From Perna viridis (taxonomy: Eukaryota): a DNA stretch of 64,000 nucleotides. The position numbers were made by a program. The stretch is taken from positions 19,554,704 through 19,618,703 of the forward strand of contig CM074521.1 of assembly GCA_037379345.1 (NCBI GenBank). Direction: 5' to 3'. This document shows positions 1 through 33,000 of this stretch, piece after piece (position 1 is the stretch's first letter; each line of letters begins with the position of its first letter).

Positions 1-3000
1 ATAGGCCATAAATTATGTACCATATTGTCAGATATGTGTGGGTTTTTTTTCGGTATGATTCATTGTTTTTCAATTTTGCCTGATTCTTATGGATTCCAGT
101 ACTTAAGATAATTTAAATTTCATTTTTCTATCTTTTATAGAACAGTACAGATAGTGGAACACCACCAGGAAGTCCTCGTAAGTTTATATGTTAGGGTTTA
201 CTTTTATAACAGATATTCTCTTTCCTAATATTGAAAGTAGTAACTAACAGATACTGATCCATCCCTGGTATACTGACCATATGAGGTTTGCCCGTGGATC
301 TCTGTTGCACTCAAATTTTCAACTTGGTGTGTGGGCAAAATAATTTGAGGGTCTGATTTGTTGAAAAATTCTACTTTTAATGAAAAATAAAACATTTGGA
401 AAGTGGAATGAATTTACTAGTAATCTAAAGTAATGGAGGGTAATAGGGGCAGAGAGTTCTTTCAATATACACATTCTTCACCAATTAGTTTAATAATGAT
501 ATAGGAATGATACCTTCATAGAAAACTTGTGACTTTCATATTAGTAAAATCTGAATTATTACCGAAATAATGTATTTTCCTGATCAAGTGAGATTAGGAA
601 AAAAACAACTGTCAGCACGGTAAATAAGCTTGTGTAAACACTTCGTGAACTACTATTTGGAGGAAAACCCCTTGTTCTATAAATAGATCAAAGATGACAT
701 CAGTAAATAAAAGGAATTGTGGGTAAATAGCTGAGGCTGACCTTGCTAACTTGTTTTGCTGTGTTGCTTTGGAGGTTATATTTTATTAATCCTGGGGGCA
801 CTAAAATCAGTAAGGATGAGGAGACGGAGAAGTTCAGGAAAGAGTATGGATGGGGAATCCAGTAGCTCTGCAGGTTTGCACAAAACATGATTGAAATTCT
901 GAATATTTATTTCATCAAGATTTAAAATTTTCTCTTATCTTTAATCTTTAGGGAAGTAAATCTGTATAAAGTCACAAAAGAATATTTTTACCTATTATGC
1001 CATTTAATTATGTGCTTTTTCACACATATTCCACATAATGTGTCAATTTCATTATTGGAAATCAATATTTACAGGGCTGGTAAAATTAAACTCATCATTT
1101 TGCATCCATATACACATGGTTCATTGGAGGTTAATTGATATTACAGCAATTAAAGTTGTAATTTTCATGATAAGTCCATCTTTTTGGTTATGCTTTTACA
1201 TATCACAGTTTGGCTACTGATCAAGTTGACTTTTCCATATATACTATTTATTGCTCTGAATCAATAAAAGCTTTTAAAAGGAGTGACAATCCATAAAAAT
1301 TGCTGGAGGATATCGTTGGCTGTCGGAAATAGGATGATGTCCATTTTGTAAATGAGACAAGAAAATCCAAATTGGCTCAGTCTGCAATTTTGTTATTATA
1401 ATTAAGTTTTTCTCATGCTGGATAGAAACTAAGTAAAGAATTGGTTACATAATTGTACATGTATTAAATTGGCCTACATTTTCAATAGAAATTTTTCAGG
1501 TTCCAAGCTCCACTTAAAATGGAATAAATAGTGCAAATCTAGTATATTTATGCCAAGCTGTTTAAGGCAGGAAATTGATCATGTCCCTTTAAAGAATGAT
1601 TCAAGTATTTAAAAAGTAATATTGGACTCCTTTTTTCCATTTTAAGGTGATAAATTCCTAGGATTAAGCATTTTATGGACGTGTTATACATAAATATATC
1701 ATAAATTTTGTATTGGTTGGTTCATGTACAATGTTGTTTGTTAAGGGAAGAATTAGTCATGCAATTGATTCCAAAAGCATATTCAAACTTAATCTGCCAT
1801 CAAAGGGATTTAGGAACCTATTTTATACCACTGCGGATATAGGTACAAAATATCGGCTGTTTTGGAAGTTAAGACAGAAAATATGACAGTGAGCCTGATA
1901 GTGCGAGATTGGTAATCTGTTGAGATGTTCAAATCTGACATCATCTCTTTATCGGCAACATCAAGTCCATTTGATGTAATTGCCAATATTTTTTTAGTAT
2001 CATGTTAGTACTCTGAAAATATCAGGCTGTAAGAACAATTGAAAAAAATGATAATGTAGCTGATAAAAATGTATGCAGTACACTGGGAAATTTTTGTGAG
2101 TTTCTTAATTCCCTATATTTGTGAGGTTCAAGGAATTGTGAAATGAAAAAAGATTGCTGGGTTTAATGTCAGATTTTGGACAGTTTCTCCTGTAAACTGT
2201 ATCTTTAGATGAGACAAAAAGACTGCAGGAATTTAATACCCGTATTATAGAGCAAATCATGAAAAATGGCACCTGTGATAATTATCTGCTATATAGTAGG
2301 CTAAAAATTCACTTCTTCATTGTCTGATCAAAGTAGGAAAACACCCAATTTGCATGAAGGTATTTGAATTTTTAACCAGAGATTTGGCAGTAATTAATAG
2401 TCCTGATCCAATGTGAAAATTTAAAAAATTACTGGACCATTTAAAATTTTAGTTGACTTTAATTTACCTCGTTTTGACGGACCTCTGTTATCATTTGAAT
2501 ACTTTTTTATGTCCAGCCATCAATGAAAGGGACAATTTGTGTGTTCGTCTGTTCATTCCTCTTGAAACTTGTTACATATGAAACTCAGGAAACATTTTAA
2601 TTAGGACAGACCCAATATAGGTCACCGTTTCTAGTATGTGAGTTTAGTGAAGCAACAATAATGCTTTCTATTCAAATATGTCATTTTGAATATTTGACCA
2701 CCTGTTCTGTATGGAGTACAATCACATGTGCCATTATATAACCTGATGAATTTTGTGATACCATTCATTAGCTTCAGTCACAATTCATAAACAAATGACA
2801 GTTTGCAGATTGTAGAAATCAATAAAATTGTGTCTATTGTACTTCCTGCATTCTTGGGAAAAGACATTTCTAATATTTATCAATGAGGGACCATTCACAA
2901 TGTAATCCAGAATTTCACCTGTAGTGTTTTTCCTAGTCATTGATACTTGGTCATTGATGGTAGATTGCAGTGTTGTTTTAAGCATAAAAATTCACGAAGA

Positions 3001-30000: not shown

Positions 30001-33000
30001 ACTAGTAAAATCTTGCCGATTTTCTGTAATACAATTAAGCCTTTCAAAATGCAATTACTGGGTAATATGCCTTTGGCTTGATATTGTTCAGTCATTCAAT
30101 GTAAAGATATTTCATCTAATTTCAAGTCAATTTCATCAGAAATGCAGAAATTATGTCATAAGCAGTAAAAAATGTAATGCTATTATCATATAGTATTACA
30201 ATGTTTCCTAGTTTTGACAAGAATAGTACAGAGATTTGTCTTTTAAAAGTACATGTGACTGTATATGTTGTTTTAATTATTTTTGGGTTTTTTTTCAGAT
30301 GAAAACACAGAGCAGGCATTTGCAAAGTTTATGCGAGCTCACAAGTGCTATGATTTGATACCCACGAGTGCCAAACTTGTTATTTTTGACACATTATTAA
30401 ATGTAAGTACTTACAGATTTGAAAAGCATGTGTTAGAATAATATAATCAACAAGAAAACTCACAGCTGATATATAGATGTAGTTTCACAAGAAAATGGTA
30501 GACATTGATCATTGGTTTGAGATGGTGGTGCCATGGAGAAAGAAAGTATTGCATGGTCGAATAATCAGTGTTCTATGATTTTCAAAATTCTAGGTTTTCA
30601 CAGGCAAACTCTAAATATAGATTAACTTTCCTATACTTGAAGTTTGCTTGCCAAACTTATCAAATCATTTGAAAAATCCGAGCTTATTACTTGCCAAAGG
30701 GAAAGTTGGGCATAATATACAGCTCTCTTACACCAAAATTGCACTTTTTCTGAGTGATGGGAAAGTGAATTCCTAGAACACTGCATAAGTTGTAATTAAA
30801 GGCAAAATCTGAATTAGTGATGCCCAGTGAATGAAGTGTCTGTAAGTCAGTGTGTGTCATCTGATTGTCTAGGGTTCTGGGCTGCACTGAGAGTCCCAAA
30901 ACATTCATTTGTCTTTCTGTCTATGTGTCTGTCTTACAGCAGGTTTGCCAGAATTGAAGATTTTGTCCCATAAAGAATTAGGTCACATTAGCTGAAAGTA
31001 TTTGCTAGTTTTGACCAGATATGGAAACCCATTAATTTTTTTATGGTTGCTGATTTTCACAGGTTCTGTGAAGTGAACATGTATGCAGGCATCAATTTTC
31101 CCTATTTAAACTTAGCAAGTGCTACCTATTCGCCACAAAATGTGGAGCAGAGCAATATGTTGGCATTGACATATTTTCTTGTTTCATTTCAAGGTTTTGA
31201 TCTTAACTACTTATCAATGAAATTCAATAGCCCCTATCATGGTATGCTGTCATTTAACAAGTGTTATCTAAAGGGTAATATGTGCATTAGTATGCATTTA
31301 AATAATACTTGTGCACTGGCAGGCAAAAAATCTTCATTGAAAGAAATAATTAACCGATATTGTACCATTTAGATAGAGTTTATTGACAAATGTGGGTTAA
31401 AAGAGTCATAATTGTTGTAATAAAGTTAAAATCAATACACTTTATTGGTAAACTAATATTCTTGGATATTCATTTCTAAATGCTAATTAGGTGTTCTCAC
31501 AAAACTTTTTATTCTTTGTAAACTAAAAGTCTTCAGGAATTGTAGAATAGGTAATAGCAGTGTATTGTCTTTTTCCAGAAACCAATAGCTGAAGTGTTCT
31601 CAAAATATAACAAGAATAGTTATGGTGTATTTGTCAAAGAGACAACAAACCCACTGAGATAAGAATGTCAGCTCAAGTCTCTAAAGTTTGCTTGAAGAGG
31701 GGAGTTGTTTAATCACCCTTGTGACCTAAAGAAATGATCTACTCAATATTTACTTAAGTTAATTTGCTTATAAAATGTACAAGGTTCTACATGTTGAAAT
31801 TCTTAGTACTCCTGTTCTTAGCTGGAATCATGCATACCTGTTAACCCTCCCTATTTAGGAGGGAGACTCCCTCTTTTTGGGTCAATCTGCCCTCTTTTAA
31901 AAAGTCTCACATGTTGGACTCACAAGTCTCCCTCTTTCACAAATTTCTCCCCCAGATCTCTTTCTTAGTAGAAATATTGCACAAATTATGTTCTAAATGA
32001 TAGAAATGACGTAGGCTCATTGATGCCTCTTGATGATATCATATTTGTCCCAATGTTTCATATGATTTAAGCATACATGCTCAGGGATAAAAAGGTACCC
32101 ATCAAATATGTTTATAGATTTTCTAAATGTTGATGAGTTCCAAAAAAAAACCAAAAATAAAAAACACCATTTTTTTGCTGCTAACCTATCTCCAAATCCT
32201 GAACACGGACCTGTAAATTGTCTCTTTCTACTAGTGGTTTCTTGTAACAACATATCAGTTAATTAATGACTTCCATACTTCACCATGACTTGTTTTCCGA
32301 CAACTTTTAGCTCAAGTATCTTATTGTTTTGTTATCTTAAGTTAGATATCTCCTCAATATTGTTATGGGTGGTTGTGGTTTTGTAAATACTTCAGTCACT
32401 TGTTAACTCTCCTAAATGTCAAGGTTATTATCATTAATCTAAATACACTTTTTTCCCAGCAACTTACTACAAAATGTTGTATGGTATTTTGGAATGGCAC
32501 ATCTTCATAATATATGATATAAACAATGCTTTTAGGTATAAAATGCAATTAAAAGTGATACTATGGGATATGTGAACTTCAATCAAATTTTGAAACAGAA
32601 TTATCTATAGAGTGAAAATGAAGTAGTTCACATCATTCATTCCATTACAATATTTCAATCCACATTTTACTGTATGTTTTTCTTGCTGTATGGCACTGCT
32701 CCAAAATGCTGAAAAGGATAGAAATGCATAGATTAATTGTTCTTTCAATTGATACTTTTGTTTTTGGCAGCAGATTATGGCTTGGTTTACACGTTGAAAT
32801 CTCATCATGGTCTTGGCACTATTGTAAATATCTGTTACATTGAATGATTTATCAATCTTTAGGTCTCATGGTTTTCTTGTTTATTTTATGTAGTCAGAAA
32901 CATACAACAATGAAGTTGCTTGATATCTGATGAAGTCGGTTTGAAATGAGGAAAACACTATCCTGAGAATTTGAAAATGTTGTAGGTAACTTCAATGGAG

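What the first reader, a model, noticed from the sequence alone, without database searches (positions are those of the whole stretch)
141..30402. Modular, combinatorially assembled N-terminus of an invertebrate AMPK-gamma
Seen: before the CBS core, about 30 kb holds only three short core exons. The introns there contain two ATG-bearing phase-1 exons (9921, 16759), three phase-1 3n mini-exons (3899, 4118, 16076) and one phase-0 microexon (22188), all open in the gene frame. Established: vertebrates diversify AMPK-gamma N-termini through three paralogues, and Drosophila does so through alternative promoters of one gene. Inference: this single locus may encode a panel of differently targeted energy sensors through alternative promoters plus microexons. 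Short in-frame exons can arise by chance in AT-rich introns.
Basis: partly seen in the sequence, partly recalled or inferred. Interest (0 to 1): 0.7.

Follow-up and report, generated by a model that had tools for sequence, protein, structure and literature searches.

The report
Mussel AMPK-gamma gene with alternative N-terminal exons

Summary
The window holds most of a mytilid AMPK-gamma (PRKAG) gene on the + strand (141 to 60844). It starts mid-gene: about 260 residues of N-terminus lie upstream of the window.

All six proposed segments exist with the stated lengths, phases and AG/GT flanks. As a class they are no more frequent than in shuffled intron.

Three are supported by position-specific matches to isoforms of other bivalves:
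- 22188-22214, a microexon found in Mytilus isoforms;
- 3899-3928, a cassette found in M. galloprovincialis X5/X8;
- 9921-9960, an alternative first exon whose KKRK-Ser motif recurs at the N-terminus of short isoforms of oyster, Mya and Dreissena.

Three have no match and sit at chance level: 4118, 16076 and 16759.

The general inference, one gene diversified by alternative promoters plus small exons, holds. It is already visible in RefSeq models (M. edulis up to X22) and mirrors vertebrate PRKAG2 and Drosophila SNF4Agamma. Differential targeting is untested.

All searches were exon by exon.

The parts
141..177 (+). constitutive exon (NSTDSGTPPGSP), starts in phase 0, ends in phase 1; the gene continues upstream of the window
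   Evidence: tblastn of Mytilus isoforms; sequence and splice sites
775..873 (+).
   Evidence: 89.7% over 29 aa to M. coruscus P0004 and 96.3% over 27 aa to M. edulis P0130; rank 1 of 724 open segments, score 123; boundaries
3899..3928 (+). 30-nt phase-1 cassette mini-exon (NPHLRINIG), supported
   Evidence: Same position as the insert RNVLRLTIG of M. galloprovincialis X5/X8 (P0126, P0122) and RNYLGLSI of transcript-type P0142. Rank 1 of 724 against the Mytilus insert (26 vs 12) but only rank 6 of 724 against the P0142 insert
4118..4153 (+). 36-nt candidate mini-exon, unsupported (most likely chance)
   Evidence: Open, AG/GT, donor GTAAGA; no meaningful match in 243 proteins (best E = 11); one of 4 good-site candidates where shuffles give 4.4 +/- 2.5
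9921..9960 (+). alternative first coding exon (MSKKRKLSLRLRI, ends in phase 1, donor GTAAGT) that would splice to 18648 and give a short gamma of roughly 375-380 aa
   Evidence: E = 2.6e-07 to oyster P0229 residues 15-27. The same motif sits at the N-terminus of Mya X12 (P0156) and Dreissena P0055, directly before the SPL[KR] exon. Rank 1 of 321 ATG..GT candidates (55 vs 15; 27 vs 10)
16076..16099 (+). 24-nt candidate mini-exon, unsupported (most likely chance)
   Evidence: Open, AG/GT, donor GTAAGT; 0 hits in 243 proteins; chance-level class
16759..16807 (+). 49-nt ATG-bearing candidate first exon, unsupported (most likely chance)
   Evidence: Open, donor GTAAGA; the best local hit is an internal 8-residue gapped match, E = 0.70; one of 13 such ATG..GT segments where shuffles give 19.5 +/- 5.1
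18648..18757 (+). constitutive exon (SPLK...DDSVR), phase 1 to 0; acceptor for every module of the preceding intron
   Evidence: 87% to Mytilus over 39 aa; boundaries
18758..18766 (+). possible alternative donor adding 9 nt (VSD) before a GTACGT
   Evidence: P0144 (transcript-type, another mytilid) carries VSD at this junction; the same codons and GTACGT are present in the window
22188..22214 (+). 27-nt phase-0 microexon (MQYGSIHEE), supported
   Evidence: Matches MPYQGSIHEE / MPYNGSIHEE, present in 10 of 27 mytilid proteins covering the region; E = 0.001; rank 1 of 173, 35 vs 8 for the next independent segment
24711..24756 (+). constitutive exon (FSLESDIDKLDIEDL), phase 0 to 1
30299..30402 (+). 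first exon of the conserved CBS core ([19 protein letters not shown]...)
   Evidence: 100% over 36 aa to Mytilus; start corrected from 30297 to 30299
41424..41505 (+). core exon
46720..46778 (+). core exon
48775..48820 (+). core exon
51420..51598 (+). core exon, CBS repeat
   Evidence: Pfam CBS 38.2 bits (cut-off 24); PDB AMPK gamma-1 residues 121-177, E = 1.7e-20
52058..52138 (+). core exon
52666..52788 (+). core exon, CBS repeat
   Evidence: Pfam CBS 35.2 bits; 100% to Mytilus over 41 aa
53834..53905 (+). core exon
58699..58779 (+). core exon
59673..59766 (+). core exon; its 3' end and donor form the first unit of a 38-nt tandem repeat
60819..60844 (+). last coding exon part (…FEPTKKS, stop)
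   Evidence: motif scan downstream of 59766; compare Mytilus …YEPNKKS

Best explanation
The window is the 3' two-thirds of a mytilid-mussel orthologue of AMPK-gamma (PRKAG / SNF4Agamma). Its disordered N-terminal extension is varied at the RNA level. Within the window there are four conserved optional modules. (1) An alternative first coding exon at 9921-9960, presumably driven by a promoter inside the 18.5-kb intron, splices in frame to 18648. It would replace the roughly 260-residue long extension with a 13-residue basic peptide: KKRK followed by a Ser with basic residues at P-3 and P-2. (2) A 99-nt cassette at 775-873. (3) A 30-nt cassette at 3899-3928. Both are phase-1 3n exons between 177 and 18648. 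(4) A 27-nt phase-0 microexon at 22188-22214 between 18757 and 24711. A +9 alternative donor at 18758-18766 is possible. Shown here: exon anatomy, frames, splice signals, and position-specific protein conservation with isoforms of other bivalves. Inferred: use of these exons in this species; promoter activity upstream of 9921; and that the basic, Ser-rich modules act as phosphorylation or localisation switches. The segments at 4118, 16076 and 16759 are most likely chance in-frame segments of AT-rich intron.
For: Gene identity: 13 colinear exons match Mytilus PRKAG isoforms at 71-100% identity. Single exons hit Pfam CBS and PDB AMPK gamma-1 (E = 1.7e-20). The nearest named proteins are Mytilus spp. 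at 95% over a 59-aa exon. Modules: the 22188 peptide matches an insert present in 10 of 27 mytilid proteins covering the region; RN-type cassette 3 of 27; RLILGALK-type cassette 2 of 27. Rank tests against every open AG..GT or ATG..GT segment of the same intron and phase: 775-873 is rank 1 of 724 (score 123). 3899 is rank 1 of 724 (26 vs 12). 22188 is rank 1 of 173 (35 vs 8). 9921 is rank 1 of 321 against oyster (55 vs 15) and against Mya (27 vs 10). The KKRK..SL[RK]L[RK] motif occurs in 3 of the 243 fetched proteins, always N-terminal and directly before the SPL[KR]/SPRK exon: M. gigas P0229, Mya X12 P0156 and Dreissena P0055. Intron background control: where three homologue models read through a donor into intron, identity to the window falls to 2 of 26, 3 of 26 and 3 of 26 after the first four codons. 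P0142 (RN cassette) and P0229 (KKRK start) come from 2.2-2.9 kb contigs that encode many exons contiguously, so they are transcript-derived by inference. Precedent: PRKAG2 gamma2-3B starts at an intronic exon 3b spliced in frame (PMC3477313, passages). Its unique Ser25 has basic residues at P-2 and P-3 and is a regulated phosphosite (PMC11752127, passage).
Against: There are no transcript data for this species, so use of any alternative exon here is inferred. 3899 is only rank 6 of 724 against the second mytilid insert (P0142), and its blastp match alone is not significant (E = 21). The splice sites of the supported cassettes are weak: 775 has a GAG acceptor and a donor matching 3 of 6 positions; 3899 has a pyrimidine fraction of 0.59 and a donor matching 3 of 6. 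Many supporting proteins are computational models (RefSeq X-isoforms, genome-project models), so the combinations may be enumerated rather than observed. No Mytilus protein starting with the KKRK exon was seen, but only 15 of the 72 cluster members were listed, and the exon-18648 search found only 7 clusters, all with long N-termini. CpG o/e around 9921 is only modestly raised (0.57 against a window median of 0.22), which is no clear promoter signal.
Confidence: 0.82

Rival explanations
1. All six of the reader's segments, and the 775-873 segment, are chance in-frame stretches of AT-rich intron; the gene has only its constitutive exons here.
For: Counts of such segments equal the shuffle expectation. 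Splice-site quality does not separate supported from unsupported candidates.
Against: Four segments are rank 1 among 173-724 same-phase candidates against orthologous inserts at the same junctions. Translated intron otherwise shows 2-3 identities in 26. Chance remains the best explanation for 4118, 16076 and 16759 only.
Confidence: 0.03
2. The matching inserts in relatives are annotation artefacts, and the conservation reflects non-coding intronic elements rather than coding exons.
For: Most supporting proteins are predicted models. M. coruscus P0005 shows a likely donor read-through after the microexon, so such errors do occur.
Against: Length stays a multiple of three and the frame is preserved across genera. 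The inserts lie exactly at exon junctions. P0142 and P0229 derive from short contigs that encode multi-exon proteins contiguously. The KKRK start recurs in three bivalve orders.
Confidence: 0.06
3. 9921-9960 is used not as a first exon but as the 3' part of an internal cassette, 9883-9960 (78 nt), which is open in phase 1 and has a usable acceptor.
For: 9883-9960 is the best-scoring cassette candidate of the intron: pyrimidine fraction 0.71, donor matching 5 of 6.
Against: In all 3 proteins carrying the motif it is N-terminal, at residues 3 to 16 of Mya X12 and Dreissena P0055 and residues 16 to 27 of the oyster protein. None of the long isoforms among the 243 proteins has it internally. The residues upstream of the ATG in the window do not resemble the oyster's upstream residues.
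Confidence: 0.08

Closest known systems
Mytilus spp. PRKAG / AMPK-gamma multi-isoform locus (RefSeq models; M. edulis up to X22, M. californianus X1-X5, M. galloprovincialis X5/X8, M. trossulus X11)
   Same: Orthologous gene with colinear exons. It has the same microexon after ...DDSVR, the same RN-type mini-cassette and the same RLILGALK-type cassette after ...PPGSP.
   Different: Different genus-level sequence: 87% in exon 18648-18757, and a microexon of 9 rather than 10 codons. The FASLIQ-type microexon and all long-form first exons lie upstream of this window. No Mytilus protein with the KKRK start was among those listed.
Short AMPK-gamma isoforms of Magallana gigas (UniRef A0A8W8MG59), Mya arenaria X12 (XP_052804375.1) and Dreissena polymorpha (DPMN_059317)
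   Same: The N-terminus carries the KKRK...SL[RK]L[RK] motif and joins directly to the SPL[KR]/SPRK exon, as 9921-9960 would.
   Different: The oyster protein has 14 more residues upstream. Mya and Dreissena have FG inserted before the Ser. Expression in this species is unknown.
Vertebrate PRKAG2 promoter variants (gamma2-long, -short, -C, -3B)
   Same: One gene in which alternative promoters give different N-termini on a common CBS core. gamma2-3B starts at an exon inside an intron, is spliced in frame, and has a short unique peptide with a basophilic phosphosite (PMC3477313 and PMC11752127, passages). Fish gamma2-like N-termini P0108 and P0119 carry KKRRSLR[LI].
   Different: Vertebrates also have three paralogues. 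The fish motif sits in the long-form first exon before DLSS, not before the SPLK exon. Homology of the motifs is not shown.
Drosophila SNF4Agamma (loechrig)
   Same: A single gamma gene with several alternative transcripts, one encoding a neuron-specific isoform (PMC3934941, abstract).
   Different: No sequence relation of the N-terminal modules was tested here.

Membership tests
AMPK gamma subunit (PRKAG / SNF4) | CBS repeats forming the nucleotide-binding core | tested here: met
   Exons 51420-51598 and 52666-52788, each on its own, pass the Pfam CBS cut-off (38.2 and 35.2 bits against 24).
AMPK gamma subunit (PRKAG / SNF4) | Specific similarity to solved AMPK gamma rather than to generic CBS proteins | tested here: met
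   Exon 51420-51598 matches AMPK gamma-1 chains at E = 4.5e-21 to 1.7e-20. The next non-AMPK CBS protein is at 7.2e-08.
AMPK gamma subunit (PRKAG / SNF4) | Colinear orthology with annotated PRKAG of close relatives | tested here: met
   13 exons in order match Mytilus isoform residues about 260-631 of 638.
AMPK gamma subunit (PRKAG / SNF4) | Binds AMP/ADP/ATP and assembles with alpha and beta subunits | not testable with these tools
   Biochemical property; not addressed.
Alternative-promoter N-terminal isoform (as PRKAG2 gamma2-3B) | Unique ATG-bearing exon inside an intron, spliced in frame to a common downstream exon | tested here: met
   9921-9960 has an ATG and an in-frame stop 87 nt upstream with no ATG between. 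It ends in phase 1 with GTAAGT, matching the phase-1 acceptor at 18648. Orthologous proteins start with this peptide.
Alternative-promoter N-terminal isoform (as PRKAG2 gamma2-3B) | A transcription start site upstream of the exon | tested here: inconclusive
   The only proxy available was CpG o/e. Its maximum around 9921 is 0.57 (94th percentile of the window), far below the 1.6 peak at 25 kb. No CAGE or RACE data.
Microexon / mini-cassette alternative splicing | Very short (up to about 30 nt) 3n exon with AG/GT flanks that keeps the frame | tested here: met
   22188-22214 (27 nt) and 3899-3928 (30 nt).
Microexon / mini-cassette alternative splicing | Both inclusion and skipping observed in transcripts | not testable with these tools
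   In relatives both forms exist among the models (10 of 27 with the microexon, 17 of 27 without). There are no transcript data for this species.

The most novel reading that the evidence does not exclude
The KKRK-x-Ser-Leu-basic first exon at 9921 marks an ancient internal promoter, shared by Mytilida, Ostreida and Myida. It would make a 'gamma-short' AMPK whose only N-terminal feature is a basophilic-kinase phosphosite or NLS-like switch. The same motif type recurs at the end of other bivalve first exons (...LKLKIQ, ...KLKIKIP before DLSA) and in fish gamma2 (KKRRSLRL). This would suggest a reusable, possibly duplicated, regulatory module older than the bivalve-vertebrate split.
Probability: 0.15. 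Interest if true: 0.5.

Novelty: new member of a known kind. Interest (0 to 1): 0.25.

Why it matters
The result gives a corrected exon map for the variable part of a mussel AMPK-gamma gene. It shows that pattern-based spotting of short in-frame exons in AT-rich introns gives about half false positives even when splice sites look good. The one modestly interesting point is a short-isoform first exon conserved across three bivalve orders with a PKA-type Ser in a basic context, parallel to gamma2-3B of mammals. Bivalves have one gamma gene (stated for C. gigas in PMC4883820, passage), so isoform-specific knock-down there could test what gamma N-termini do without paralogue redundancy. I found no paper on bivalve gamma isoforms. 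The M. coruscus cloning paper reports a single 623-aa cDNA (PMC9777882, passages).

Tried and rejected
- **ETAK microexon.** I looked for the 12-nt ETAK microexon of the P0006 cluster in intron 24757-30298. Nine open 12-nt AG..GT segments were found and none resembles it.
- **Splice-site PWM.** A PWM built from the gene's own 13 exons over-fits and ranks the homology-supported cassettes poorly. I replaced it with simple consensus counts.
- **16602-16625.** This segment resembles the P0142 insert (score 18, top of 724). It has a purine-rich acceptor region and a GTGTCT donor, and the next candidate scores 16, so I treated it as chance.
- **Search with the first 40 residues of Dreissena P0055.** It returned 5 proteins among 6 candidates and no new KKRK starts.
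- **Search with exon 18648-18757.** It returned 7 clusters and no short mytilid isoform.
- **tblastn of all 243 proteins against the window.** Outside the core exons it gave nothing at E <= 1 except 786-869, 9918-9959 and 22125-22250. The other 89 of 92 rows were low-identity noise, mostly with stops.
- **CpG o/e as a promoter proxy.** Inconclusive for both 9921 and 16759.
- **ATG..G|GT first exons before 30299.** I searched for a CBS-only isoform like P0024. There were 22 candidates and none was convincing.
- **Other features.** Rfam gave 0 matches. Pfam on the 10 longest other ORFs gave nothing above cut-off, so no nested gene was seen. None of the seven candidate exons overlaps a dispersed repeat of the window.
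- **Papers.** Guevelou et al. 2013 (Biol Reprod) is not held.

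
Full report
**What is there.** The window has no N runs and is 33% G+C. Translating the + strand shows CBS-type exons. A 59-residue exon (51422-51598) finds AMPK-gamma proteins: 2155 hits with E <= 0.001 among 2175 candidates, 120 of them listed. The best named hits are Mytilus species at 95% identity. The same exon passes the Pfam CBS cut-off, and so does exon 52666-52788. It aligns to residues 121-177 of solved AMPK gamma-1 at E = 1.7e-20.

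tblastn of six mytilid isoforms places 13 colinear exons between 141 and 59766. I fixed their boundaries from the sequence. A last coding piece lies at 60819-60844. The exon phases are consistent throughout.

The first exon in the window (141-177) corresponds to about residue 260 of the 638-residue M. californianus X4. The window therefore starts mid-gene, and most of the N-terminal extension lies upstream of it. I searched exon by exon only. The four-CBS count and a full-length identity figure are therefore not given.

**Checking the observation.** All six proposed segments have the stated length, phase, open frame and AG/GT flanks.

Pattern alone does not distinguish them from chance.
- Intron 178-18647 holds 724 open phase-1 3n AG..GT segments of 12-150 nt, against 649 +/- 43 in 100 dinucleotide shuffles.
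- Four of these have a YAG acceptor, at least 60% pyrimidines and a donor matching at least 4 of 6 positions: 4118, 16076, 9883-9960 and 10844-10897. Shuffles give 4.4 +/- 2.5, and 58 of 100 reach four.
- Thirteen ATG..GT phase-1 segments have a donor matching at least 4 of 6, against 19.5 +/- 5.1 in shuffles.
- In intron 18758-24710, 173 open phase-0 segments compare with 200 +/- 21 in shuffles.

The homology-supported cassettes actually have weaker splice sites than the unsupported ones.

**Evidence from relatives.**
- Cluster look-ups show heavy isoform annotation of this gene in bivalves. The Mytilus cluster has 72 members, of which 40 were read and 15 listed, with M. edulis isoforms numbered up to X22. 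Mercenaria reaches X27, Magallana gigas X17, Mya X13 and Dreissena X10.
- Of 30 mytilid proteins examined, 27 cover the region between ...PPGSP and DENTEQ.
  - 10 of 27 carry MPY[QN]GSIHEE between ...DDSVR and FSL..., exactly where 22188-22214 (MQYGSIHEE) lies.
  - 3 of 27 carry an RN-type insert after ...PPGSP (RNVLRLTIG in M. galloprovincialis X5/X8, RNYLGLSI in P0142), where 3899-3928 (NPHLRINIG) lies.
- 2 of 27 (M. coruscus P0004, M. edulis P0130) carry a 30-residue RLILGALK... insert. It matches window 786-872 at 89.7% over 29 aa and 96.3% over 27 aa.
  - 9 of 27 carry an F....Q microexon before NSTDS, which would lie upstream of the window.
  - 7 of 27 carry ETAK before DENTEQ. I could not find this in the window.
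  - 1 of 27 carries VSD after ...DDSVR. This corresponds to a possible +9 donor that the window also has.
- For 9921-9960, the peptide MSKKRKLSLRLRI matches residues 15-27 of a 401-residue M. gigas protein (P0229) at 11 of 13 identities, E = 2.6e-07. It resembles the N-terminus MFRKKRKFGSLKLKF of Mya X12 (P0156) and Dreissena P0055. All three join directly to the SPL[KR]/SPRK exon. The split codon at the junction would read Ile, as in the oyster protein.

**Significance of the matches.** I compared each orthologous insert with every open segment of the same intron and phase.
- 775-873: rank 1 of 724, score 123.
- 3899: rank 1 of 724 against the Mytilus insert (26 against 12), but only rank 6 of 724 against the P0142 insert.
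- 22188: rank 1 of 173 (35 against 8 for the next independent segment).
- 9921: rank 1 of 321 against oyster (55 against 15) and against Mya (27 against 10).

As an intron background control, three homologue models read through a donor into intron. Their identity to the window's translation falls to 2 of 26, 3 of 26 and 3 of 26 after the first four codons. Intron is therefore not conserved at this evolutionary distance.

By contrast, 4118, 16076 and 16759 have no meaningful match among the 243 fetched proteins. Their results were best E = 11, no hit, and an internal gapped 8-mer at E = 0.70. A tblastn of all 243 proteins found nothing else in the introns. None of the seven candidates overlaps a dispersed repeat.

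**How it most likely works.**
- Shown: the anatomy and the conservation.
- Inferred: a promoter in the 18.5-kb intron drives 9921-9960. This would give a gamma of roughly 375-380 residues, from summed exon lengths, that lacks the long extension and begins with KKRK and a Ser with basic residues at P-3 and P-2.
- Inferred: the two phase-1 cassettes and the phase-0 microexon insert 33, 10 and 9 residues into the disordered linker of the long forms. The 99-nt cassette adds an RRRRSS stretch.
- From general knowledge, such basic-Ser motifs fit basophilic kinases, and KKRK fits the classical monopartite NLS pattern. Neither was tested.
- In the relatives' models the modules combine freely. All four combinations of the F....Q microexon with the ...GSIHEE microexon occur. 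Many of these are computational enumerations, so true combinatorial use is unproven.

**Comparison with what is known.**
- PRKAG2 is transcribed from several promoters (gamma2-long, -short, -C, -3B).
  - gamma2-3B starts at an exon within intron 3, is spliced in frame, and has 32 unique residues (PMC3477313, abstract and passages).
  - Its Ser25, with Arg at P-2 and P-3, is a regulated phosphosite, and the gamma2 extension is a phosphorylation hotspot (PMC11752127, passages).
- In Drosophila the loechrig insertion affects one of several alternative gamma transcripts, encoding a neuronal isoform (PMC3934941, abstract).
- C. gigas has one gene per AMPK subunit (PMC4883820, passage).
- A M. coruscus paper cloned one 623-residue gamma cDNA and does not discuss isoforms (PMC9777882, passages).
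- Three searches found no paper on bivalve gamma isoforms.

The thing is a new member of a known kind, already visible in database models.

**Wider context.** Among the 243 fetched proteins there are 111 distinct N-terminal sequences upstream of the DLSAFA-type exon. Several families recur across bivalve orders. The main promoter diversity of this gene therefore lies upstream of the window. Fish gamma2-like proteins P0108 and P0119 carry KKRRSLR[LI] near their N-termini. Some bivalve first exons end in ...LKLKIQ or ...KLKIKIP. Whether these are related to the 9921 motif is open.

**Verdict.**
- Three of six proposed exons are real by homology, three are at chance level, and one conserved cassette was missed.
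- My estimates that each exon is real are about 0.95 for 22188, 0.9 for 9921, 0.9 for 775-873 and 0.8 for 3899. For 4118, 16076 and 16759 the estimate is below 0.1 each.
- Interest is low to moderate.

Noticed in passing
window 24900-25900 (core 25335-25492): There is a sharp CpG-rich patch (CpG o/e up to 1.61 against a window mean of 0.26) in the intron before the first CBS-core exon. It holds five copies, about 35 bp apart, of a palindromic 16-mer (GTGCGTTTAAATGCAC type; 11 strand-matches with up to 3 mismatches, 0.42 expected), set within nested inverted repeats. It could be a young foldback or MITE-like insertion, or a binding-site array or internal promoter.
   Followed up: partly
window 59743-59912: A 38-nt tandem repeat (4.4 copies) has as its first unit the 3' end of coding exon 59673-59766 plus its donor. 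Read by eye from the printed sequence, the later copies appear to have lost the GT at the matching position.
   Followed up: no
window 18758-18766: A possible alternative donor 9 nt downstream (adds VSD, followed by GTACGT) is matched by one transcript-type protein of another mytilid (P0144).
   Followed up: partly
window 11159-11565, 15263-15575, 20960-21269, 26846-27526, 38342-38544, 47249-47460: Intronic minisatellites with periods of 60, 51, 125, 36, 33 and 54 nt. The 36-nt array has 18.9 copies and creates a spurious 238-codon ORF.
   Followed up: no
window 3571-3737, 17634-17856, 53351-53565(-); 6756-7163, 42629-43039(-), 50780-51190: Two dispersed repeat families, about 165-220 bp and about 410 bp, three copies each at 78-90% identity, all in introns. 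The first lies 160 nt upstream of the 3899 mini-exon but does not overlap it.
   Followed up: partly
whole window: CpG is strongly depleted (o/e 0.26 overall). By inference this fits a heavily methylated gene body of a broadly expressed invertebrate gene.
   Followed up: no
window 16602-16625: A 24-nt open phase-1 segment whose peptide resembles the RN-type insert of P0142 (top score of 724). It has a poor acceptor region and a GTGTCT donor, so it is probably chance.
   Followed up: partly
outside the window (upstream of base 1); proteins P0002-P0243: Bivalve AMPK-gamma models show 111 distinct N-termini upstream of the DLSAFA-type exon among 243 fetched proteins. Several first-exon families are conserved across orders. 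Mya arenaria has two runs of accession numbers on one contig, which may mean a duplicated locus.
   Followed up: no
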